The notes under the pieces were generated by a model. The model saw only the letters and a list, made by a program, of their open reading frames with translations, searched no databases and was not told where the DNA came from. A stretch of DNA of 53,351 nucleotides, taken from the UHGV virus genome UHGV-0304279. One strand, written 5' to 3'. This DNA is from a virus. Positions 764-34,014 of the stretch are shown here, one piece after another. Made by a program: the position numbers and the translations under genes. Each line of letters begins with the position of its first letter. Position 1 is the first letter of the stretch.

Positions 764-1495
764 ATGGGGATGGAAGACAAAATGTCGCGTTATGCCGCCG
801 CGCATCCGTTTGAGGAAGTTTGCGGGCTTGTAATAGATAACGAGTATTTTTACCCGTGCGCTAACGTATCTGAAACGCCTCACAACAGCTTCAAAATTTC
901 GCAGGACGATTACATCAAAGCGGACGAATTAGGCGTTATAACCGCCGTTTTTCACTCTCACGTTGATGATATTCCGGTATTGTCGGCACGGGATCGACAA
1001 CAGCAGGTTATTTCAGGGCTACCCTGGCTTTTGTATTCAGGCGGCAGGATCAGGAAATTCCGTCCGGTGGCGCACCTGTTAGGCCGTAAATTTGTACACG
1101 GAACGACAGATTGTTATGCGCTTTTTCGCGACGCCTATCACCTTTGCGGCGTGGACCTGCCGGACTTCGAGCGCCTTGATGGCTGGTGGCTTCGCGGTGA
1201 AAACCTGTATCTAAAAAACCTTCCATTGAACGGGTTTTATCAGGTTGATGCGCAAAGAATACAGCCTGGTGATGTGATCATTCGCCAGCCGTTTAAAGGT
1301 GCTGATCCATGTCACGCGATGGTTTACCTGGGCGATAACACAGTTTTACATCATGACCATGCCGGACTATTAAGCCGCCGCGAGCAAATGCGGCCCGCGT
1401 ATGTTCGACAGACTCATTCAATATGGAGATCTGATAAATGCTCAAATTTAGATTTACGGGCAATCTTCGAAGATATTACAGCAAAGTGTGTTTAA
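764..1495 (+). CDS. tail tip assembly protein K (lambda gpK-like, JAB/MPN plus NlpC/P60-type)
   Basis: Position after L and the HSH-containing segment typical of gpK; internal ATG at 764 directly follows the L stop, within track ORF 668-1495. Confidence 0.8.
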   Translation: MGMEDKMSRYAAAHPFEEVCGLVIDNEYFYPCANVSETPHNSFKISQDDYIKADELGVITAVFHSHVDDIPVLSARDRQQQVISGLPWLLYSGGRIRKFRPVAHLLGRKFVHGTTDCYALFRDAYHLCGVDLPDFERLDGWWLRGENLYLKNLPLNGFYQVDAQRIQPGDVIIRQPFKGADPCHAMVYLGDNTVLHHDHAGLLSRREQMRPAYVRQTHSIWRSDKCSNLDLRAIFEDITAKCV

Positions 1496-1968
1496 ACGTT
1501 GAAACGCCAGCGCAAGGACTTCGCTTATTGACCGCGCAGAATCAGGAATTCAAGAAGGCGTTTTTAAATACTCCTTTGCGTTTACGAATTGCCGGGAAAG
1601 ATTACAACGAAAAGACAGCGCCAGCGGCGGTTAATAGCAAATATCCAGATGGAACTACGGTAATTATTGCGCCAATAGTGGAAGGTGGTATTGCAGGGAT
1701 CGGTGTGGTCGGCTGGATTATGATTGGACTATCAGTTGTTAGTGTCGCTTTTTCTATTTTTATGTCTCGCAACATGAAAGTAAAAACATCATCAGAAAGC
1801 GCACAGGACAATACAATCACAAATAACACCTATACCAGCGTAGAAAACAAGGTAGGCCAGGGTAGACCAGTGCCGATTCTGCTTGGCGAAATGAAAGTAG
1901 GTTCAAACGTCGGATCGTTAGGCATAGACACGACAAATAATAAAGACGCCTTAGACGTTGTAAGTTAA
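1438..1968 (+). CDS. tail assembly protein I (lambda gpI-like)
   Basis: Position between K and J, overlaps the K 3' end as in lambda; hydrophobic glycine-rich central segment; start uncertain. Confidence 0.65.
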   Translation: MLKFRFTGNLRRYYSKVCLNVETPAQGLRLLTAQNQEFKKAFLNTPLRLRIAGKDYNEKTAPAAVNSKYPDGTTVIIAPIVEGGIAGIGVVGWIMIGLSVVSVAFSIFMSRNMKVKTSSESAQDNTITNNTYTSVENKVGQGRPVPILLGEMKVGSNVGSLGIDTTNNKDALDVVS

Positions 1969-4900: not shown

Positions 4901-6035
4901 CAAAGGAGAGATAGCACGCGTAGACAAAGCAATAGCAACAGAAACGCAGGCAAGAAGCGACGCAATAACAGAAGTTAAAGCTGATCTTACAACGCTTGAA
5001 AGTAATACAAATGCCAGTGTTAGCCGTCTCGATCAGGCCATCGCTGATGAGTCAAGCGCCCGCGCCCAGGCAATATCAGGAATCAGTGCGGAGCTTGGTC
5101 TTGTTGAAAATGAGGTTGATAAAAACAGCGACGAAATAGATCAGGCGAAAGCAAGTCTACAAAACGCTTCACTTGCTCTGATCAACAACTCAATAGCGCA
5201 AAGCAAAATGAGCACTGTTATTGAGGCAAAATACAGGAAAGGCCAGACAAAAACAAAAGCGGAAATAGCAAGGATCGACACCGCAATAGCAGACGAAACC
5301 CAGGCCCGCGCGGAGGCTATAGCATCGCTTGAGGCAAATATTAATGAAAACATTTCAGCAAAAATAACAGATATATCAACGGCGCTTGCAACTCACGAGG
5401 AATCAAGTGCTGAAAAATTTGTTCAAATATCGGCATCTTTCGACGATGTAAACTCAAGCATCACGGAATGGTCACAGGCTATGGCAACGGCAGACGAGGC
5501 ATTATCAACCAAAATTGATCAGCTAACAGTTACCGTTAACGGGAACACAACAGCTATCGAGACGACATCGAAAGCATTAACTGATTTCAAAGGTGACGTT
5601 AACGCATCATATTCAATCAAGATTGCCACTGATAACAACGGCATGAAATATGCCACTGGCATGTCGCTTGGCCTGACTGGTAGCGGGACTAACGTTCAAT
5701 CGCAGTGCATTTTCCTCGTTGACCGCTTCGTGTTAATGACCGCCGCAAACGGCACATATACAACGCCTTTCTATGTCACTGGCGGCGCAATGTATGTACG
5801 TGAAGCGTTTATTAAGGACGCATCAATCACTAACGCGAAAATAGGTTCTTACATCCAATCAAATAACTATGTTTCCGGCAGCACAGGCTGGAAACTTGAT
5901 AAATCCGGTACATTCGAAAACTACGGATCAGTAAGCGGTGAAGGGGCGATGAAGTGGACGAATACAACGATCTCTGTCAGAGATGGAAATAGCGTGTTAC
6001 GCGTCCAGATTGGGCGAATTACCGGATCATGGTAG
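1983..6035 (+). CDS. tail tip / host specificity protein J (central tail fibre), with long C-terminal coiled-coil extension
   Basis: N-terminal two thirds resemble lambda gpJ throughout (N-terminus, NPAW, YCDQ.V.DG.GG.EPR.T.NAY, FGCTSRGQA.RAG.WL motifs); 1350 aa; C-terminal part is heptad-rich with an internal duplication. Confidence 0.9.
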   Translation: MSSGGGKAKTPTLINDNLYHKQFYRVLDIISEGPIYGPVNTNAPLNSVMLNDTPVTDANGNTSIPGVSVAWRNGTADQSPINGFNAIESTVMVNAQVKHDTPLVRTVSDPNVTRVRLNIGVDSLVESDSQSNQKETSVIMAIDVKPSSSSTWSSIKAVQIGPGKISGEYLEAHIINAPDEKPFDIRVRRVTADSTSDLLQNDTRWNSYSEIIDDNLSYPHTAVAGAVIDHDQYTDTPTRTYHLRGLIVDVPDNYDPETRTYSGLWLGGMKQAYTNNPAWIFRYLVKNERFGLARHAGYIDVDDGALYTLSQYCDQLVDDGYGGLEPRVTLNAYITEQMSARDLLDNIAGMFRGIALWDGQRLTVMIDAPQDPIATITNANVVDGAFTRSSISRAECYNAVIVSWTDPENGWEQSKEYVADDELIARDGYNETTMEAFGCTSRGQAYRAGKWLIETAKREPSKFTFKMARDAIHFTPGDIIEILDNNRAGARLGGRIVANNGNVITVDKVDSEYITAGDTISLLDSDGKFKKHQITGISGNKITLAAAPAWIRNGTVFAVSTEAAKPVLCRITSVAETENNSVYTIEAAQHDPNKQAVVDEGAIFEINNDTLNHFRVPNIENLKVVNIGSETVQCRATWETQTTTHRMTFEIRIYNTDGAVVKSYETTKYSYDFYGIDAGAYSLGVRGRNDTGMKGAESIVDLVIGAPAAPVGVNWVPGVFQATVYPISKTTLTTDTSYEFYYAGENQITDPAIITTSAQFTGRGYQWTFGGMNTGHTYYVYVRTRNAFGVSDFVEASGKPTEDFDEITDYVTKDVMESEQFKEMISDIKDLGDRTDIVEGATEDLKIATEDLKADTDTLKKDTEDLYKKVEENADEIGKHEVRIDSLEVSSENVNNELAQTKASLQNASLALINNSLAQTNTRVTLTAQYKKGRNETKAQIDRIDNVIAEEKKATAESLETITAEISTMDSNIKGEIARVDKAIATETQARSDAITEVKADLTTLESNTNASVSRLDQAIADESSARAQAISGISAELGLVENEVDKNSDEIDQAKASLQNASLALINNSIAQSKMSTVIEAKYRKGQTKTKAEIARIDTAIADETQARAEAIASLEANINENISAKITDISTALATHEESSAEKFVQISASFDDVNSSITEWSQAMATADEALSTKIDQLTVTVNGNTTAIETTSKALTDFKGDVNASYSIKIATDNNGMKYATGMSLGLTGSGTNVQSQCIFLVDRFVLMTAANGTYTTPFYVTGGAMYVREAFIKDASITNAKIGSYIQSNNYVSGSTGWKLDKSGTFENYGSVSGEGAMKWTNTTISVRDGNSVLRVQIGRITGSW
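4686..5213 (+). repeat. internal direct duplication inside J coiled-coil region (copies about 4686-4729 and 5170-5213)
   Basis: Near-identical about 44 nt segments encoding KASLQNASLALINNS(L/I)AQ, each followed by a similar about 50 aa block. Confidence 0.7.
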
Positions 6036-6085
6036 AATTAAGGGGCCGACTTGTTCGGCCTCAGTTTTATTATGGAGGTGTAATA

Positions 6086-6397
6086 ATGGCTACTTTCGGC
6101 GTAGCGACCTGGGACGCCAATGGCAATCCTAATAACTACGGTATCAAACCTTCCGTCGTAGTTGGCTATATTTCCTTGTCTTCCGGGCAAGTATCCGGAA
6201 CATATTCTTTTACCGTTCCAACCGGGTGCAAATTATCTTATGGCGTGGCGCTTGATTATGGTACAACATCGTCAACGCGCAGAAAGATCAGCATTTCCGG
6301 CGGCACTGTTTCCATTTCCTCCGCAGGGGATACGGTAGGGGCTGATATATGGCCTGCGTCACAATGTGACCTGATTATTTTTACGGAGATTGCATAA
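6086..6397 (+). CDS. hypothetical protein, MATFG paralogue 1
   Basis: ATG at 6086 with RBS GGAGGT; shares the N-terminal MATFG..(L/W)..NGN motif with the next gene. Confidence 0.5.
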   Translation: MATFGVATWDANGNPNNYGIKPSVVVGYISLSSGQVSGTYSFTVPTGCKLSYGVALDYGTTSSTRRKISISGGTVSISSAGDTVGADIWPASQCDLIIFTEIA

Positions 6398-23103: not shown

Positions 23104-23296
23104 AAATTACAGAGAATGGAAAATTCCAGCAGAAGCAACAAAGGCGGCACCTGGTGATTTTTCTGGTGTTTACTTCTATATGGATGGCAAATGGTATTTC
23201 GGCAGCAGGCCTGAACACTATTACCAGGAAATATGCAAGCCTCACGTGTGGGATATTAAGGAGCGCGTGAGAGACGGAGTAATTGAGGACGTTTAA
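23093..23296 (+). CDS. hypothetical protein
   Basis: ORF in operon context. Confidence 0.4.
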   Translation: MRFKNYREWKIPAEATKAAPGDFSGVYFYMDGKWYFGSRPEHYYQEICKPHVWDIKERVRDGVIEDV

Positions 23297-23297
23297 A

Positions 23298-23534
23298 ATG
23301 TTCAAGAGCTTTTTAAACTGGTTGGGAGCGTGGCTTTTAGCCACGCTTTTTGTTTTCCTGGCGGCAGCGGCTGTTATCGTCGTTATTATGCTGGGGGCGA
23401 TTTTTATTACGTGGTCGCTGCCTGAATTTAACGACATTGGGAATATTCTTTTTGTCGCCCGCGCTTTATTGGCGGTTAGCGCATTTGTCGGGTTTTGCTG
23501 GACTGCCGCGCCAGATTGGGATGATCCGTTTTAG
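23298..23534 (+). CDS. small membrane protein (two predicted TM helices)
   Basis: Hydrophobic segments LGAWLLATLFVFLAAAAVIVVIMLGAIFI and ARALLAVSAFVGF. Confidence 0.4.
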   Translation: MFKSFLNWLGAWLLATLFVFLAAAAVIVVIMLGAIFITWSLPEFNDIGNILFVARALLAVSAFVGFCWTAAPDWDDPF

Positions 23535-23536
23535 TT

Positions 23537-23770
23537 ATGGCTTTATTCAACCTGTCAGAGCCGCAATTTAATGCCGTTAAAACTGCCGCGCGGGCGGCGC
23601 TTTCTGCCTGCAAGACAGAGGTGGAAAGAAACGGATATAGCGATAAAGCCACGCGGCTGATACTCGACAAGCATTATCGCAAGGTCGCCCCGCTAATCAG
23701 CATTGAGCGGTTTGTGTGGTTGGTGGGGTATCTGAATAACCGCTGGGGGACGGAGCAGGATTATTTCTAA
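23537..23770 (+). CDS. hypothetical protein
   Basis: ORF in operon context. Confidence 0.4.
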   Translation: MALFNLSEPQFNAVKTAARAALSACKTEVERNGYSDKATRLILDKHYRKVAPLISIERFVWLVGYLNNRWGTEQDYF

Positions 23771-23779
23771 GGGGGCGCA

Positions 23780-24313
23780 ATGAAAAATGATTACGGCGGC
23801 AGTCATACGCCGAAAGAAATAAAAGACCTATGGCAGACGCCGAAACCTGTTTTTAGAGGAATGGATCGGGAATTCGAATTCGTCGCGGACGTGGCGGCAA
23901 ACAAGGCAAATGCATTAGTTCCGCGATATATAACCGAAGAAATGAACACGCTCCATTATCCGTGGGGAGCGGTGGCGATGCCTGGTGATTATGTCTGGAT
24001 GAATCCACCATATTCTAATCCGGGGCCATTCGTTGATAAGGCGGCGCTTGAACACCACCGAAATCATATTGGCTGTGTAATGTTATTACCCGCCGACACT
24101 TCTGTTAGCTGGTTTATGAATGGCGTGGAAACGGCAAACGAATGTCGTTTAATCACGCGCGGGCGACTGGCGTTTATCAATGCTGCGACTGGTAAGCCAG
24201 TGAGCGGGAATAACAAGGGGAGCTTGTTTCTGATCTGGCATCCACGATGCAGACATGAATGTATTTTCACGCAAATAACACGTAAAGAGCTATATGCAAG
24301 AGGTGCGGAATAA
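23780..24313 (+). CDS. phage-type DNA N6-adenine methyltransferase (Dam-like)
   Basis: Catalytic NPPY motif (VWMNPPYSN) and overall resemblance to small phage N6A methyltransferases. Confidence 0.75.
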   Translation: MKNDYGGSHTPKEIKDLWQTPKPVFRGMDREFEFVADVAANKANALVPRYITEEMNTLHYPWGAVAMPGDYVWMNPPYSNPGPFVDKAALEHHRNHIGCVMLLPADTSVSWFMNGVETANECRLITRGRLAFINAATGKPVSGNNKGSLFLIWHPRCRHECIFTQITRKELYARGAE

Positions 24314-24804
24314 TGACTAAGGCAGCAGATTTATTAAGACTTGCAGCGGAAACCATAGAACAAAGAGGTAAGCAAAACGGCTACGATAAAAAAGAGGAAA
24401 AATCAGCGCCAAAAATAGCCACTATTTACAACGCTAAGAAGGGGGCCGATTTAACCCCGCTTGATGTATGGGATCTGCTAATTTGTCTCAAGGAGGCGCG
24501 TTTAGAGGCCATTTTGAGCAATGGGACAGATCCTACTGACACGCTAGTTGATTTGATTAGCTACAGCGCACTAAAAGCGGAGCAAATACTAACGGAGCGG
24601 GAGGGAGAACAAAGAAAGAAAAAGGCTGTTTTTGATATGCCGTTAAATTGCGGCTGTAAGAATGCCTCAATACCAGGCGACTTGATCGCCAGCAGCAAGG
24701 TGACGCTAAATGGTGTCCTTTCAAAAAGGCTTGATGTGAAGTGCGATAACGAATCACTACTACGCGCGGCGGGGTATCATAAAAATGAAAAGGGTGACGA
24801 TTGA
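24313..24804 (+). CDS. hypothetical protein
   Basis: Translationally coupled (ATG overlaps the upstream stop). Confidence 0.45.
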   Translation: MTKAADLLRLAAETIEQRGKQNGYDKKEEKSAPKIATIYNAKKGADLTPLDVWDLLICLKEARLEAILSNGTDPTDTLVDLISYSALKAEQILTEREGEQRKKKAVFDMPLNCGCKNASIPGDLIASSKVTLNGVLSKRLDVKCDNESLLRAAGYHKNEKGDD

Positions 24805-25288
24805 CAGGTTATTGGCCTGCGTTTATGTCGCCGTTTTCGTGATCATTAATCTTATTGTTAGCCACTGCGGCCCGTGGGTAATTCCAGTCACCACGGTAGC
24901 CGCCGTGTGCGTCAATATGATGATCCGTGACTTCCTGTTATATGACGGCGGCCTGAAATGGTCTGCTACAACATGCGCCGCCGCTGGCGCAATCACGGTG
25001 CTGATAAACTACGATGCCGGGATGGTAGCAATCGCGTCATTCGTCGCGGTTGTTTCCGGTGCGCTTATTTCTGGCGGTGTTTACCGGATTTTACCGGGTG
25101 ATTTCGATTCAAAACGCTGGCCTGCAAATATAGCATCCGCTATTGGCGATGCGTTAATTTTCCCAACGCTATCGTTTATGGCATTCATGCCGGAAATATC
25201 AGCTATGCAATTCATCTCAAAAATGGCGGCGGTAACGGTGATCACTATCATCATGCGCCGCTACTTTACGTTCGAGGGTAGGAAATGA
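24785..25288 (+). CDS. integral membrane protein (multi-pass)
   Basis: Several hydrophobic helices; overlaps neighbours on both sides. Confidence 0.5.
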   Translation: MKRVTIDRLLACVYVAVFVIINLIVSHCGPWVIPVTTVAAVCVNMMIRDFLLYDGGLKWSATTCAAAGAITVLINYDAGMVAIASFVAVVSGALISGGVYRILPGDFDSKRWPANIASAIGDALIFPTLSFMAFMPEISAMQFISKMAAVTVITIIMRRYFTFEGRK

Positions 25289-26049
25289 GTGGGCTTAGAA
25301 ATTGGGTGGTGTGGTCGCTGTACGACGGCAGCGGATACGCCGTTAAAGATTGGGCCGACGCTGGTTATAAATGCTATTGCTTCAACTATGATGGCGCTAA
25401 TCACGGCGATTATGAAGGCGTCAAAATCATTCATCCGAACATTGAGTATGTCAACGTATGGATTGACAGCCATTTCCTGGCAATGTTCTCCCCTGAATTG
25501 TCTGTTTATCCAGATCCTGACATTATCCTGGGCTTTCCTCCGTGCGACGATCTTGCGGTGTCCGGCGCTCGCTGGTTTGCTGATAAGCGGAAAAAAGATC
25601 CTTACTTCCAGCAGAAGGCGGCATACAACGCAAAACTGGTAGAAACGCTTGCTGATATGTACCACGTCCCGTGGATGGTGGAAAATCCGGTGGGCGCACT
25701 GTCAACGTTATGGCGTAAACCGGATTTTATCTTTAATCCGTGCGCTTACGGTGGCTACCTGCCGGAAGATGATAAGCATCCAGCTTTCCCGGAATACATC
25801 GCCGACCGCGACGCCTACACGAAGAAAACTTGTATCTGGTGCGGGAATGGATTTAAGCAGCCGCTATTCCGGCCTGTACCTATGCCGGATGAATGGGAAG
25901 ACAGTAAACAGCACGCGAAGTTAGGCGGAAAGTCGAAGCGCACTAAGATGATCCGCTCACTAACGCCGCGTGGCTTCGCGCGTGCTGTATTCCTGGCTAA
26001 CGACCGGGCAATCACACGAACTACGCTTAACCGCGTTTTGCCGGACTGA
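25285..26049 (+). CDS. C5-methyltransferase-like protein (short, non-canonical PCD motif)
   Basis: Motif I-like LYDGSG, motif IV-like GFPPCDD (PCD in place of PCQ), motif VI ENV (MVENPVG). Confidence 0.5.
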   Translation: MSGLRNWVVWSLYDGSGYAVKDWADAGYKCYCFNYDGANHGDYEGVKIIHPNIEYVNVWIDSHFLAMFSPELSVYPDPDIILGFPPCDDLAVSGARWFADKRKKDPYFQQKAAYNAKLVETLADMYHVPWMVENPVGALSTLWRKPDFIFNPCAYGGYLPEDDKHPAFPEYIADRDAYTKKTCIWCGNGFKQPLFRPVPMPDEWEDSKQHAKLGGKSKRTKMIRSLTPRGFARAVFLANDRAITRTTLNRVLPD

Positions 26050-26050
26050 A

Positions 26051-26131
26051 GTTTACAAAATGGCGTCATTGTGTGATGAGGATCACATAATGGCGCTTTG
26101 CACCTTGTTTGCGTGTATCCGTTTTGTATAC
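26051..26131 (+). promoter_or_regulatory. intergenic regulatory region with motif copies and a CRP-like palindrome
   Basis: GTTTACAAAATGGC (26051-26064); TGTGA-N6-TCACA (26072-26087); CCGTTTTGTATAC (26119-26131) with -35-like TTGTTT and -10-like TATACT. Confidence 0.4.
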
Positions 26132-26208
26132 TTCAAACAAACAAAATGCTCTTTAAAAATCCGGTAACGCTGAAATGCGTAGAAATCACCTGAAAAGGAG
26201 AGAGCATT

Positions 26209-32961: not shown

Positions 32962-33102
32962 ATGAACGCTAACGCCAAATATCCTGCATGGGTTTTCGAA
33001 CTGTATGCACGCTACTTCGAATTACTGGCACCAGGTGAAGAAGCATTGAGCATTGACGAATACGCGGAGTGTTTAGGATTTAAAGGAGACGAAGAAGAAT
33101 AA
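32962..33102 (+). CDS. hypothetical small protein (46 aa)
   Basis: RBS GAGGTGG; below the ORF track cutoff. Confidence 0.35.
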   Translation: MNANAKYPAWVFELYARYFELLAPGEEALSIDEYAECLGFKGDEEE

Positions 33103-33145
33103 AACATGGGGCCGGATGGCCCCATTAAATCAGAAGGGTTTAATT

Positions 33146-33430
33146 ATGAAAAGTGCTAAATTTATTGCTTGCTGTTTTGTTGAAGTACCTAACGATGATG
33201 TTTTCTGTAACTACGAATTTAAAGACAGTGCCGGAACTGTTCATACCATAGTAGGCAAGCGTGGTGACTGGTTATATATCACTGATAGAGACAGAATATT
33301 GACGGTTAACCAACTTATTTACATTAAACGTGGTTACGATGATTATGATCTTTTAAACAAAATAGCAAATGATGTTTTTAATAGCAGTTGCGTAGAAACG
33401 GCAAGATCTCTACCTGGTGCGGAGTTTTAA
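33146..33430 (+). CDS. hypothetical protein
   Basis: RBS GAAGGG. Confidence 0.4.
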   Translation: MKSAKFIACCFVEVPNDDVFCNYEFKDSAGTVHTIVGKRGDWLYITDRDRILTVNQLIYIKRGYDDYDLLNKIANDVFNSSCVETARSLPGAEF

Positions 33431-33432
33431 TT

Positions 33433-33687
33433 ATGGAAATAATCAAAATATGGCGCGGCAATAGTAAGGCTGATGGTGAGTTTTGCCGCGTCGTTCAATT
33501 CGTCAATTATGGTAGGTTTTATGAGCTACCTTATGACAAAAGGAAGGATGATTTTTATTTAAGCGAATCAATCCCGGTGCACAGAAAAATGAAGGCGCTT
33601 AGAGGATTATTGCGAAGTGGTTTTTATTCTTGCCCTAACCCATTAAACAATCCTGAACTGGTAGCTGTTTTTTACGAAGGAAAATAA
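33433..33687 (+). CDS. hypothetical protein
   Basis: RBS GGAG. Confidence 0.4.
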   Translation: MEIIKIWRGNSKADGEFCRVVQFVNYGRFYELPYDKRKDDFYLSESIPVHRKMKALRGLLRSGFYSCPNPLNNPELVAVFYEGK

Positions 33688-33690
33688 ACA

Positions 33691-34014
33691 ATGTCTAAAT
33701 TTATCAGCGTTAAAGTTTTCCGTGGCACTATTCCAGAAGGTGAGAAATACGGCCAATTCGGTGGAATGCCAGGTGCATGTTTCCGTGTAGCCACGGAAGA
33801 CGACGACCATGTTAAATGCTTCCATGTATCGGAGCCGCCTTTTAATCCAGAGCATCTTGAAAACCCGAATAAAATTAAAATGTTCGTTTTCGCTTTACTG
33901 ATGCTTAATCCTTTCCCTGATGTTGAAATGGAATTAGTTGGCGCGGAAGTGGTCGCGGAATACAAAATAACCCCGGCAGAAAACGGAGATTCTAAAATTG
34001 AGCGCATCAAATAA
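33691..34014 (+). CDS. hypothetical protein
   Basis: ORF in operon context. Confidence 0.4.
   Translation: MSKFISVKVFRGTIPEGEKYGQFGGMPGACFRVATEDDDHVKCFHVSEPPFNPEHLENPNKIKMFVFALLMLNPFPDVEMELVGAEVVAEYKITPAENGDSKIERIK

What the first reader, a model, noticed from the sequence alone, without database searches (positions are those of the whole stretch)
23780..26049. Translationally coupled four-gene module: Dam-like N6A methyltransferase, unknown protein, multi-pass membrane protein, C5-methyltransferase-like protein with PCD motif
Genes 23780-24313, 24313-24804, 24785-25288 and 25285-26049 overlap at every junction. The first has the NPPY N6-adenine methyltransferase motif. The last has C5-methyltransferase-like motifs I (LYDGSG), IV (GFPPCDD) and VI (ENV) but is only 254 aa and has Asp where canonical enzymes have Gln after the catalytic Cys, suggesting altered chemistry or specificity, possibly without a target-recognition domain. 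A membrane protein embedded between two DNA-modifying enzymes is unusual and could indicate precursor uptake or an unrelated function. This may be an anti-restriction or DNA-modification module of unrecognised type.
Basis: partly seen in the sequence, partly recalled or inferred. Interest (0 to 1): 0.55.

Follow-up and report, generated by a model that had tools for sequence, protein, structure and literature searches.

The report
Phage methylase genes plus orphan transporter
Four tightly packed early genes of a temperate E. coli phage are two ordinary DNA methylases, one protein of unknown role, and a queuosine-precursor-type transporter that has lost the DNA-modifying enzyme it normally accompanies in other phages.

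Summary
The four overlapping ORFs are real and are conserved in about 40 related phages and prophages of the mEp021 (mEpimmI) group. Gene overlap is normal throughout this operon, so it is not special to these genes.

- **Gene 1** is a phage Dam-type N6-adenine methyltransferase (PF05869, TIGR01712).
- **Gene 2** is a DUF6378 protein with a hypervariable tail. Its function is unknown.
- **Gene 3** is a short, divergent member of the VUT/YhhQ family of 7-deazaguanine (preQ0/preQ1) transporters.
- **Gene 4** belongs to a large family of compact Dcm-like C5-cytosine methyltransferases, found in 1485 phage records. It is 61% identical to the KarlJaspers enzyme. The equivalent enzyme of the sibling phage K42 was shown to make 5-methylcytosine and to trigger retron Ec86.

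The "PCD" motif is a clade-specific variant of the family's PCT. DNMT3 has PCN (my recollection), so Gln is not universal at that position.

In other viruses the same small transporter almost always sits beside the DNA transglycosylase DpdA (73 of 80 loci). This phage has no DpdA; the methylase occupies that position instead. The transporter is nonetheless under strong purifying selection (dN/dS 0.04).

Variants lacking gene 4, or genes 1 to 3, exist, so this is not an obligate unit. Overall it is an ordinary self-methylation gene set plus one unexplained orphan transporter.

The parts
23780..24313 (+). Gene 1: phage Dam-type N6-adenine DNA methyltransferase (177 aa). The NPPY catalytic motif is at residues 75-78 (nt 24002-24013).
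   Evidence: Pfam PF05869 E 1.9e-52, covering 166 of 169 model positions. NCBIfam TIGR01712 equivalog, 142.6 bits against a cut-off of 97.05. phrog_111 E 3.4e-65. PADLOC orphan MTase E 9e-26. dN/dS 0.046.
24313..24804 (+). Gene 2: DUF6378 protein (163 aa). It has a conserved helical N-terminal domain (about residues 1-98, nt 24313-24606) and a hypervariable, probably disordered C-terminal tail (nt about 24613-24801). Function unknown.
   Evidence: Pfam PF19905 32.6 bits against a cut-off of 27.1. phrog_9871 and phrog_474. The alignment shows an invariant N-terminal domain and a mosaic tail with indels. dN/dS is 0.10 for the domain and 0.37 for the tail. The AF2 model is unusable, pLDDT 47. No PDB sequence relative.
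24785..25288 (+). Gene 3: short, divergent VUT/YhhQ-family (COG1738) multi-pass membrane protein (167 aa). It is a putative 7-deazaguanine-precursor (preQ0/preQ1) transporter and is 'orphan', with no DpdA partner in this phage.
   Evidence: - Own Pfam Vut_1 hit is only E 0.28 but nearly full length.
- A profile search finds 262 relatives; 41 of 44 sampled relatives hit PF02592, best E 2.5e-15, and one is fused to QueF.
- hhalign against E. coli YhhQ: probability 86.9%, E 4.2e-6, 144 columns.
- tblastn to annotated phage VUT proteins: 1e-28 and 7e-16.
- The mEp021 orthologue is annotated with 6 TM segments.
- dN/dS 0.041.
25285..26049 (+). Gene 4: compact Dcm-like C5-cytosine DNA methyltransferase (254 aa). 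Motif I is LYDGSG (11-16), motif IV is PPC with catalytic Cys87, motif VI is E133-N134-P135, R144 is invariant, and a motif IX-like RSLTPRGFARAV lies at 224-235.
   Evidence: - phrog_757 E 7.7e-88.
- More than 2395 homologues; 1485 phage records.
- AF2 pLDDT 87, pTM 0.87.
- Foldseek top 50 hits are all DNMT3A/3B/3C methyltransferase domains.
- 61% identity, E 1e-101, to KarlJaspers bas06_0055. The near-identical K42 enzyme makes 5mC; its catalytic C82/E128/K175/K176 correspond to C87/E133/K180/K181 here.
- dN/dS 0.067.
26147..26180 (+). Context: a nutR2-like antitermination site just downstream of gene 4. boxA-like TGCTCTTTAAAAA lies at 26147-26159 and a boxB-like hairpin ACGCTGAAATGCGT at 26167-26180. 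It marks the end of this transcription segment.
   Evidence: The intergenic region 26050-26208 is 96% identical among the window, mEp021 and MagusPhagus, which is higher than the flanking genes. PMC11893012 places nutR2 downstream of the cytosine methyltransferase gene. The assignment of the boxA and boxB bases is my own reading of the sequence.
23537..23770 (+). Context: homologue of mEp021 ipe (inducer of pleiotropic effects). It ends 9 nt before gene 1, showing that the dense packing continues upstream of the 'module'.
   Evidence: ORF list. mEp021 annotation of the orthologous position.

Best explanation
**What it is.** This is a conserved stretch of the N-antiterminated rightward early operon of an mEpimmI-group (mEp021-like) temperate coliphage. 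It strings together four accessory genes that are distributed independently elsewhere.

**Genes 1 and 4.** These are orphan DNA methyltransferases: a phage Dam-type N6-adenine enzyme and a compact Dcm-like C5-cytosine enzyme.
- Inferred role: they methylate replicating phage DNA with SAM early in lytic growth. This would make progeny DNA resistant to restriction enzymes sensitive to 6mA or 5mC, whatever the host's own dam/dcm status.
- The recognised sequences, presumably GATC and CCWGG, are inferred from family names and from the K42 work. They were not shown here.
- Possible side effect: gene 4 may make the phage visible to retron Ec86 (Eco1), as its K42 homologue does.

**Gene 3.** This is a small VUT/YhhQ-type inner-membrane transporter.
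- By homology it would import a 7-deazaguanine base (preQ0/preQ1).
- In nearly all other viruses this protein is encoded next to, and often overlapping, the DNA-guanine transglycosylase DpdA, which inserts that base into phage DNA.
- In the mEp lineage DpdA is absent and the Dcm-like gene occupies its position, with the same 4-nt ATGA overlap.
- The transporter is still strongly conserved, so it probably retains a DpdA-independent role. The most plausible one is feeding the host QueF/Tgt queuosine-tRNA pathway during infection. This last step is inference only.

**Gene 2.** The DUF6378 protein has no assignable mechanism.

**Overall.** The four genes are co-transcribed and translationally coupled because the whole operon is packed that way, not because they form one machine.
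For: **Identity of the phage**
- Closest relatives are MagusPhagus (91.5%), six mEp phages, and an E. coli KKa019 prophage (96%).
- Early-operon context and nutR2 placement.

**Gene 1:**

**Gene 4**
- DNMT3-like fold.
- All 46 columns that are invariant across the 37 aligned sequences are, by construction, shared by the window protein; they include C87, E133, N134 and R144.
- 61% identity to the KarlJaspers Dcm.
- K42 Dcm produces 5mC on msDNA. The C82A/E128A/K175A/K176A mutant is inactive, and changing the CCTGG site abolishes retron triggering.

**Gene 3**
- VUT homology.
- DpdA is directly adjacent on the same strand in 73 of 80 IMG/VR VUT loci.
- DpdA is also adjacent in Opt-719, PEAT2, LHE71, Phc, ECO111 5-P and RCIP0319.
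- The same holds for the next-closest relatives P0136 and P0137, including a VUT/DpdA 4-nt overlap in L227.

**No DpdA in the window**
- Pfam scan of the non-structural ORFs of at least 197 aa, PHROG scan, tblastn, and a 64-sequence DpdA HMM against all 297 ORFs of 60 aa or more, best E 1.5.
- None is annotated in MagusPhagus.

**Selection:** dN/dS is 0.04-0.10 for genes 1, 3, 4 and the gene 2 domain.

**Not obligately linked**
- Gene 4 homologues outside the mEp group have no Dam, DUF6378, VUT or DpdA within 6 kb in 40 of 40 loci.
- L205, L209 and L214 keep an intact VUT without gene 4. In L205 an HNH endonuclease sits in its place.
- L097 keeps gene 4 after a deletion that fuses Dam to VUT.

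**Overlaps** are general in the operon.

**Literature:** phage-encoded YhhQ homologues are known. The CAjan yhhQ gene is dispensable for preQ0 modification.
Against: - No biochemical data exist for any of these four proteins.
- Gene 3 itself does not reach the Pfam Vut_1 threshold (12 bits against 27.2). Its substrate is inferred only from distant homology to YhhQ.
- E. coli already has YhhQ, so a redundant importer is not an obvious benefit.
- The Q-tRNA role has no direct support.
- The invariant Asp after the catalytic Cys in all 40 mEp-like genes is unexplained.
- The VUT-Dcm pairing persists in the very divergent L004 (53% and 64% protein identity). That could mean more than accidental adjacency.
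- K42 Dcm specificity for CCWGG was inferred from a motif mutation rather than mapped genome-wide.
- GATC and CCWGG frequencies in the window are near expectation and uninformative.
Confidence: 0.7

Rival explanations
1. Integrated novel modification module. The transporter imports a precursor, and the PCD-type C5-methyltransferase-like enzyme, perhaps with genes 1 and 2, installs a non-methyl or otherwise unusual modification on phage DNA.
For: - VUT sits directly upstream of gene 4 with an ATGA overlap, in exactly the position where DpdA sits in relatives.
- The pairing is retained in the divergent L004.
- Asp88 is fixed in the mEp clade, against Thr elsewhere.
Against: - Gene 4 is 61% identical over its full length to an enzyme family member shown to make plain 5mC.
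- It keeps every residue that is invariant in the family alignment.
- The family occurs in 1485 phage records, essentially always without a VUT.
- VUT persists intact where gene 4 is deleted or replaced.
- By established enzymology, a C5-methyltransferase fold has no known way of using a 7-deazaguanine base.
Confidence: 0.05
2. The transporter still serves 7-deazaguanine DNA modification, but the transglycosylase is supplied in trans. The source would be a host Dpd island, a co-resident prophage, or a phage protein too divergent to recognise.
For: - The small viral VUT and DpdA are almost universally coupled.
- Phage DpdA of the phrog_887 type is invisible to Pfam, so divergent forms can be missed.
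Against: - A DpdA-specific HMM, PHROGs and tblastn find nothing in the 53-kb window. By its gene content the window appears to span essentially the whole phage genome (my inference).
- Nothing is found in 40 related loci either.
- These phages were isolated and propagated on E. coli K-12 strains. From my own knowledge, K-12 has no Dpd system.
Confidence: 0.08
3. The orphan VUT clade (the window's gene 3, P0130 and P0133) has changed substrate. It would import something other than preQ0/preQ1, for example another purine analogue or a metabolite relevant to methylation. This would explain its recurrent position next to DNA methyltransferases.
For: - The clade is divergent: 31-35% identity to the two DpdA-linked VUTs compared directly (Opt-719, PEAT2) and below Pfam threshold.
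- Its other member, P0133, also lacks DpdA nearby and sits two genes from an N6_N4 methyltransferase.
- Strong purifying selection without a DpdA.
Against: - All positions that are invariant in the VUT alignment are, by construction, present in gene 3 (N22, G29, R48, D49, D122, F131, K146).
- From my own knowledge (Zallot 2017, cited; Yuan 2019), every characterised VUT/COG1738 member transports a 7-deazaguanine base.
- No alternative substrate is suggested by any data here.
Confidence: 0.12
4. Gene 3 is a functionless relic of a lost VUT-DpdA cassette.
For: - DpdA is absent.
- The CAjan yhhQ deletion has no effect on modification.
- One variant, L097, has lost most of the gene.
Against: - dN/dS is 0.041 at dS about 0.34 over 42 comparisons, as low as NinG.
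- The gene is intact in 45 of 47 DUF6378-selected loci (the other two are not mEp-type modules) and in the divergent L004.
Confidence: 0.03

Closest known systems
Phage K42 / KarlJaspers (Bas06) Dcm-like C5-cytosine methyltransferase, the trigger of retron Ec86 (bioRxiv 10.1101/2023.08.16.553469)
   Same: - 61% identity over 232 residues, E 1e-101.
- Same compact size class: 236 aa against 254 aa.
- Same DNMT3-like predicted fold.
- Catalytic Cys, Glu and the KK pair align exactly (C87, E133, K180/K181).
   Different: - Asp replaces Thr immediately after the catalytic Cys.
- There is a short N-terminal extension and a C-terminal extension of roughly 15 residues.
- It is encoded in a temperate mEp-type phage rather than a virulent Drexlerviridae phage.
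- Activity, target sequence and retron triggering are untested for this protein.
Phage N6-adenine methyltransferase family PF05869 / TIGR01712 ('Dam')
   Same: Full-length match well above the curated thresholds; NPPY motif; small single-domain size.
   Different: Nothing notable. The target sequence was not determined here.
YhhQ (E. coli preQ0/preQ1 transporter, COG1738/VUT) and the phage VUT-DpdA cassettes (CAjan, PEAT2, Rogunavirinae such as Opt-719)
   Same: - Homologous membrane domain: hhalign probability 86.9% to YhhQ, and 32-35% identity to phage VUT proteins.
- Same size as the viral short form (155-170 aa).
- Same position at the 5' side of an overlapping downstream gene.
   Different: - No DpdA and no preQ0 synthesis genes were found in this phage.
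- The downstream partner is a C5-methyltransferase instead.
- The sequence falls below the Pfam Vut_1 threshold.
mEp021 gp30-gp33, as annotated in MH706966 and PMC11893012
   Same: Orthologous genes in the same order. They are annotated as putative Dam, hypothetical protein, putative membrane protein (6 TM) and putative cytosine methyltransferase.
   Different: The published annotation does not recognise gene 3 as a VUT/YhhQ homologue. It also does not link gene 4 to the retron-triggering Dcm family.

Membership tests
C5-cytosine DNA methyltransferase (compact phage Dcm-like family, phrog_757) | Motif I (FxGxG SAM-binding loop) | tested here: met
   LYDGSG at residues 11-16. The family consensus is FDGSG, with G15 and S16 invariant in 37 sequences.
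C5-cytosine DNA methyltransferase (compact phage Dcm-like family, phrog_757) | Motif IV Pro-Cys with the catalytic cysteine | tested here: met
   P86 and C87 are invariant. C87 aligns with the experimentally mutated C82 of K42 Dcm. The following residue is Asp here, Thr in the family, and Asn in DNMT3 (from my own knowledge).
C5-cytosine DNA methyltransferase (compact phage Dcm-like family, phrog_757) | Motif VI (ENV) glutamate | tested here: met
   E133, N134 and P135 are invariant, giving ENP rather than ENV. E133 aligns with K42 E128.
C5-cytosine DNA methyltransferase (compact phage Dcm-like family, phrog_757) | Class I methyltransferase fold with C5-MTase topology | tested here: met
   AF2 pLDDT 87, pTM 0.87. 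The Foldseek PDB top 50 hits are all DNMT3A/3B/3C catalytic domains, E down to 5e-7, probability 1.0, TM about 0.5.
C5-cytosine DNA methyltransferase (compact phage Dcm-like family, phrog_757) | Match to the curated Pfam model PF00145 (DNA_methylase) | tested here: not met
   No Pfam or NCBIfam hit for the window protein at E of 1 or less. Only 3 of the 120 listed homologues carry a precomputed PF00145 hit. The family is too compact and divergent for the model; this does not contradict the fold and motif evidence.
C5-cytosine DNA methyltransferase (compact phage Dcm-like family, phrog_757) | Target-recognition region between motifs VIII and IX, and motifs IX/X | tested here: inconclusive
   About 80 well-conserved residues (145-223) lie between R144 and RSLTPRGFARAV, which resembles motif IX. 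A canonical motif X (GNxV) is not evident; only an invariant N239 is present. Whether this region gives sequence specificity cannot be judged from sequence.
C5-cytosine DNA methyltransferase (compact phage Dcm-like family, phrog_757) | Formation of 5-methylcytosine in DNA | not testable with these tools
   Shown only for the K42 homologue, by LC-MS on msDNA.
Phage Dam N6-adenine methyltransferase (PF05869 / TIGR01712) | Score above curated family thresholds over the full length | tested here: met
   PF05869: 177.8 bits against 28.1. TIGR01712: 142.6 bits against 97.05.
Phage Dam N6-adenine methyltransferase (PF05869 / TIGR01712) | (D/N)PPY catalytic motif | tested here: met
   NPPY at residues 75-78, read from the translation.
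Phage Dam N6-adenine methyltransferase (PF05869 / TIGR01712) | 6mA formation at GATC | not testable with these tools
   Only the family name suggests GATC. The GATC count in the window is at expectation (245 observed, 246 expected), which is uninformative.
VUT / YhhQ (COG1738, PF02592) 7-deazaguanine precursor transporter | Match to the curated Pfam model above the gathering score | tested here: not met
   12 bits against 27.2, E 0.28, although the alignment covers 144 of 152 model positions.
VUT / YhhQ (COG1738, PF02592) 7-deazaguanine precursor transporter | Homology to bona fide family members by transitive and profile methods | tested here: met
   41 of 44 profile-detected relatives hit PF02592, best E 2.5e-15. 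hhalign against E. coli YhhQ gives probability 86.9%, E 4.2e-6. There are hits to phage proteins annotated as VUT family.
VUT / YhhQ (COG1738, PF02592) 7-deazaguanine precursor transporter | Multi-pass inner-membrane protein | tested here: inconclusive
   The sequence is overwhelmingly hydrophobic. The 97%-identical mEp021 orthologue is annotated with 6 TM segments by TMHMM and Phobius. I ran no topology predictor.
VUT / YhhQ (COG1738, PF02592) 7-deazaguanine precursor transporter | Transport of preQ0/preQ1/queuine | not testable with these tools
   Known for E. coli YhhQ (Zallot 2017, as cited).
Phage 7-deazaguanine DNA modification system (DpdA-based) | DpdA (DNA-guanine transglycosylase) encoded by the element | tested here: not met
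   No hit in the window by Pfam, PHROGs, tblastn with two phage DpdAs, or a 64-sequence DpdA HMM against 297 ORFs, best E 1.5. None in 40 related loci.
Phage 7-deazaguanine DNA modification system (DpdA-based) | [quoted passage not shown] | tested here: not met
   None among the 20 window ORFs scanned, and none annotated in MagusPhagus or in the mEp021 region retrieved. Small ORFs under 150 aa were not scanned individually.
DUF6378 (PF19905) | Score above the Pfam gathering threshold | tested here: met
   32.6 bits against 27.1, residues 7-90. All 120 listed homologues carry PF19905.

The most novel reading that the evidence does not exclude
The orphan VUT transporter and the Asp-variant Dcm-like enzyme form a real functional pair that replaced the ancestral VUT-DpdA pair. 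One possibility is that imported 7-deazaguanine or queuosine status controls, or is required for, the C5-methyltransferase. This would echo the known stimulation of the DNMT-fold tRNA methyltransferase Dnmt2 by queuosine in eukaryotes (from my own knowledge). Another possibility is that the transporter has a DpdA-independent role in phage competition or host tRNA reprogramming that has not been described for any phage.
Probability: 0.07. Interest if true: 0.7.

Novelty: new member of a known kind. Interest (0 to 1): 0.3.

Why it matters
**Practical value: re-annotation**
- In the mEpimmI group, which PMC11893012 describes as prevalent in the gut, the 'putative membrane protein' is a VUT/YhhQ-type transporter.
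- The 'putative cytosine methyltransferase' belongs to the family whose K42 member triggers retron Ec86. These temperate phages may therefore be sensed by that retron.

**The one open biological question**
- A small viral transporter is almost always chained to DpdA. Why is it kept under strong selection in a phage lineage that has no DpdA and uses plain methylation instead?
- Answering that would show whether phage-encoded queuosine-precursor importers have a role beyond DNA hypermodification, for example manipulating host tRNA queuosine.

**A cautionary point**
- Phage DpdA of the phrog_887 type is invisible to Pfam. Pfam-only surveys of 7-deazaguanine systems will therefore under-count them.

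Tried and rejected
- **PDB sequence searches.** Direct searches for gene 4, gene 1 and a gene 2 profile found nothing meaningful.
- **Gene 2 structure.** The prediction gave pLDDT 47, so I ran no fold search on it. Its PHROG label 'phosphofructokinase' has no supporting evidence and I disregard it.
- **DpdA negative.** The Pfam search for a DpdA in the window proved an unreliable negative. The annotated PEAT2 DpdA itself has no Pfam hit. I replaced it with PHROG, tblastn and custom-HMM tests.
- **Opt-719 neighbour.** I considered that the gene next to VUT in Opt-719 might be a gene 4 relative. BLASTP shows no similarity, and it is a DpdA.
- **Site frequencies.** GATC and CCWGG over- or under-representation as an indirect sign of self-methylation was uninformative.
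- **Wider DUF6378 search.** A search for DUF6378 relatives in viral contigs returned almost only mEp-like loci. A general Dam-DUF6378 association could not be tested. One unrelated Faecalibacterium phage shows the same neighbourhood.
- **Literature.** A search on PF05869 gave nothing on specificity.
- **Overlaps.** I rejected 'translational coupling marks a module' because overlaps are ubiquitous in this operon.


Full report
**1. Observation**

The four ORFs are present exactly as described: 23780-24313, 24313-24804, 24785-25288 and 25285-26049, all on the + strand.
- The junctions are TAATG (1 nt shared), a 20-nt overlap, and ATGA (4 nt shared). Purine-rich ribosome-binding sequences lie upstream of genes 1, 2 and 4.
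- Overlapping or abutting junctions occur all along this rightward operon, both upstream and downstream of the four genes. The ipe homologue at 23537-23770 ends only 9 nt before gene 1.
- The overlaps are therefore real but do not delimit a module.

**2. Origin of the window**

The region matches the mEp021/mEpimmI group of Nus-dependent temperate coliphages.
- Matches: MagusPhagus 91.5%; mEp010, 013, 021, 044, 515 and 554 at 84-88%; 35 E. coli chromosomes, best 96%.
- The orthologous mEp021 genes gp30-gp33 are annotated as putative Dam, hypothetical protein, putative membrane protein with 6 TM segments, and putative cytosine methyltransferase.
- The published description places the third N-type antitermination site, nutR2, just downstream of the cytosine methyltransferase gene.
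- In the window, the 160-nt spacer after gene 4 is 96% identical among three phages, more conserved than the genes. It contains a boxA-like TGCTCTTTAAAAA (26147-26159) and a boxB-like hairpin (26167-26180). The boxA/boxB assignment is my own reading.

**3. Gene 1**

Gene 1 matches the phage Dam family over its full length.
- PF05869, E 1.9e-52.
- TIGR01712, 142.6 bits against a cut-off of 97.
- phrog_111 and PADLOC orphan methyltransferase.
- NPPY at residues 75-78.

The target sequence is not established here.

**4. Gene 4**

*Family and fold*
- It has no Pfam, NCBIfam or PDB sequence hit.
- It matches phrog_757 'DNA methyltransferase' at 7.7e-88 and has more than 2395 homologues of about 230 aa.
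- An alignment of 37 members shows invariant G15/S16 (motif I), P86/C87 (motif IV), E133/N134/P135 (motif VI), R144, and a motif IX-like RSLTPRGFA.
- The AlphaFold model is confident (pLDDT 87, pTM 0.87). Its 50 best Foldseek matches in the PDB are all DNMT3A/3B/3C catalytic domains (E from 5e-7, probability 1.0).

*Experimentally studied relative*
- A bioRxiv study identified a 711-bp dcm gene of Drexlerviridae phage K42, which is 95.4% identical to KarlJaspers/Bas06, as the trigger of retron Ec86.
- The protein raises 5mC on msDNA by LC-MS. A C82A/E128A/K175A/K176A mutant is inactive. Changing the CCTGG site in the msDNA abolishes defence.
- I retrieved KarlJaspers bas06_0055 (711 bp). It is 61% identical to gene 4 over 232 residues (E 1e-101), with C82/E128/K175/K176 aligning to C87/E133/K180/K181.
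- The family occurs in 1485 of 50,697 phage records, mostly in Escherichia, Klebsiella and Salmonella phages; sampled records include Drexlerviridae and Vequintavirinae.

*The residue after the catalytic Cys*
It is Thr in 113 of 118 homologues with a readable motif, and Asp in all 40 mEp-like genes.
- DNMT3 enzymes have Asn there (my recollection), so Gln is not universal.
- Gene 4 is under purifying selection (dN/dS 0.067).
- I conclude it is an ordinary member of a known, active, compact Dcm-like family. The Asp is an unexplained clade-specific detail, not evidence for new chemistry.

**5. Gene 3**

*Family assignment*
- Its own Pfam hit to Vut_1 is weak (E 0.28) but nearly full length.
- A profile of six orthologues found 262 relatives in the representative library. 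Of 44 sampled relatives, 41 hit PF02592 (best 2.5e-15), and one is fused to a QueF-like domain.
- The profile aligns with E. coli YhhQ, annotated 'queuosine precursor transporter', at 86.9% probability and E 4.2e-6 over 144 columns.
- Gene 3 is thus a short, divergent VUT/YhhQ homologue.

*Its usual partner is DpdA*
- tblastn found about 35%-identical relatives in virulent phages, several annotated as 'VUT family protein'.
- In Opt-719 and PEAT2 the adjacent gene is a phrog_887 'queuine tRNA-ribosyltransferase', that is, a phage DpdA.
- Among the 80 best IMG/VR loci encoding such a VUT, 73 have a DpdA directly adjacent on the same strand. Most of the six loci with no DpdA hit have the VUT at a contig end.
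- LHE71, Phc, ECO111 5-P and RCIP0319 show the same arrangement.
- So do the two next-closest relatives of gene 3, including a 4-nt VUT/DpdA overlap in L227.
- The literature describes phage yhhQ genes within 7-deazaguanine clusters. The CAjan yhhQ gene is dispensable for preQ0 modification.

*DpdA is absent here*
- The window appears, from its gene content, to span essentially a whole mEp-type genome (my inference). It contains no DpdA by Pfam, PHROGs, tblastn, or a 64-sequence DpdA HMM searched against all 297 ORFs of 60 aa or more (best E 1.5).
- None of 40 related loci has one either.
- Pfam alone would have been a false negative test, because the PEAT2 DpdA has no Pfam hit.

*The orphan is conserved*
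- It has the lowest dN/dS of the four genes (0.041 at dS about 0.34).
- It is retained in the highly divergent L004, where it is 53% identical.
- Its nearest outgroup, P0133, also lacks a nearby DpdA and lies two genes from an N6_N4 methyltransferase in another temperate phage.

**6. Gene 2**
- The N-terminal 95 residues match DUF6378 and are conserved, with dN/dS 0.10.
- The C-terminal 60 residues are a mosaic of indels and substitutions (56% median identity, dN/dS 0.37). This part is split by frameshifts in several relatives.
- The structure prediction failed (pLDDT 47), and no PDB relative exists.
- One unrelated Faecalibacterium phage also has DUF6378 within five genes of a 225-aa cytosine methyltransferase, a PF05869 Dam and ThyX. 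This hints at a nucleotide or methylation neighbourhood, but it is a single anecdote.

**7. Is it a module?**
- Within mEp-like phages the order Dam-DUF6378-VUT-Dcm is nearly constant: 42 of 47 loci selected through DUF6378 and 39 of 40 selected through gene 4.
- The parts do separate, however.
  - Gene 4 homologues outside the group never have the other three genes within 6 kb (40 of 40 loci).
  - L209 and L214 have lost gene 4. L205 carries an HNH endonuclease in its place. All three keep an intact VUT.
  - L097 keeps gene 4 after a deletion that fuses the start of Dam to the end of VUT.
- The simplest reading is a lineage-specific string of accessory genes, in which a Drexlerviridae-type Dcm gene occupies the slot that DpdA occupies next to VUT elsewhere.

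**8. Mechanism**

*Shown by computation or by the cited experiments on a homologue*
- The family identities.
- The C5-methyltransferase fold.
- 5mC formation by the K42 homologue.
- The absence of DpdA.
- Purifying selection.

*Inferred*
- Both methyltransferases methylate phage DNA during early lytic growth and protect it from restriction.
- Gene 4 may expose the phage to retron Ec86.
- Gene 3 imports preQ0/preQ1.
- Weakest step: with no DpdA, the imported base feeds the host queuosine-tRNA pathway. Hutinet et al. proposed a comparable Q-boosting role for phages that carry preQ0-pathway genes without DpdA.

**9. Verdict**

This is not a new type of modification module. It consists of two known kinds of orphan methyltransferase, a DUF protein, and a known kind of transporter in an unusual DpdA-less context. 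The orphan transporter is a modest but real puzzle.

Noticed in passing
window 26050-26208 (boxA-like 26147-26159; boxB-like 26167-26180): The spacer after gene 4 is 96% identical among the window, mEp021 and MagusPhagus, which is more conserved than the flanking genes. It contains a boxA-like TGCTCTTTAAAAA and a small GAAA-loop hairpin. This fits the nutR2 site that PMC11893012 places downstream of the cytosine methyltransferase gene.
   Followed up: partly
window about 24613-24801 (C-terminal tail of gene 2): The tail of the DUF6378 protein is hypervariable among otherwise close relatives. Median identity is 56%, dN/dS is 0.37, and there are several indel variants and frameshift splits. The N-terminal domain is conserved. 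This could reflect diversifying selection or relaxed constraint.
   Followed up: partly
L205 4910-5437; L209 about 4970-5050; L214; L097 5648-6001: Natural variants of the gene string exist. An HNH-type endonuclease replaces gene 4 in L205, with remnants of the gene 4 3' end. L209 and L214 show clean loss of gene 4. In L097 a deletion fuses the Dam N-terminus to the VUT C-terminus while gene 4 stays intact.
   Followed up: partly
L007 (PEAT2) 5441-6229; L006 (Opt-719) 5561-6304: Phage DpdA proteins of the phrog_887 type, about 250-275 aa, get no Pfam hit at E of 0.1 or less. Pfam-based screens will therefore miss this DpdA class.
   Followed up: yes
L176 (LHE71) 1187-1920 minus strand; PEAT2 record 33102-33758; L042 6045-6683; L016 4229-4831: Some phages carry both a VUT-DpdA pair and a gene 4-family methyltransferase a few kb apart. 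In LHE71 the methyltransferase reading frame appears split into two ORFs. The two protection strategies therefore co-occur in some genomes.
   Followed up: no
L171 6001-8258 (metagenomic temperate phage carrying P0133): The closest outgroup of gene 3 is also an orphan VUT with no DpdA within 6 kb. It is followed by two unknown 136-144 aa proteins and an N6_N4 methyltransferase. This is a second case of VUT next to DNA methylase genes in a temperate phage.
   Followed up: partly
window 23324-23350: A strong terminator-like hairpin (12-bp stem followed by a T run) lies inside the ORF 23283-23534, upstream of the four genes. It is in roughly the position of the predicted terminator TERM_3 annotated in mEp021, but I did not align the two.
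   Followed up: no
whole window: CTAG is strongly depleted (20 observed against 71 expected by the Markov model). GGWCC and GTAC are moderately depleted. GATC and CCWGG are near expectation.
   Followed up: no
PMC13432834 (Faecalibacterium phage FP01, genes 57-61): An unrelated Firmicutes phage has a 225-aa cytosine methyltransferase, a PF05869 Dam, ThyX and a DUF6378 protein within five consecutive genes. This suggests a recurrent DUF6378 and methylase or nucleotide-metabolism neighbourhood.
   Followed up: no
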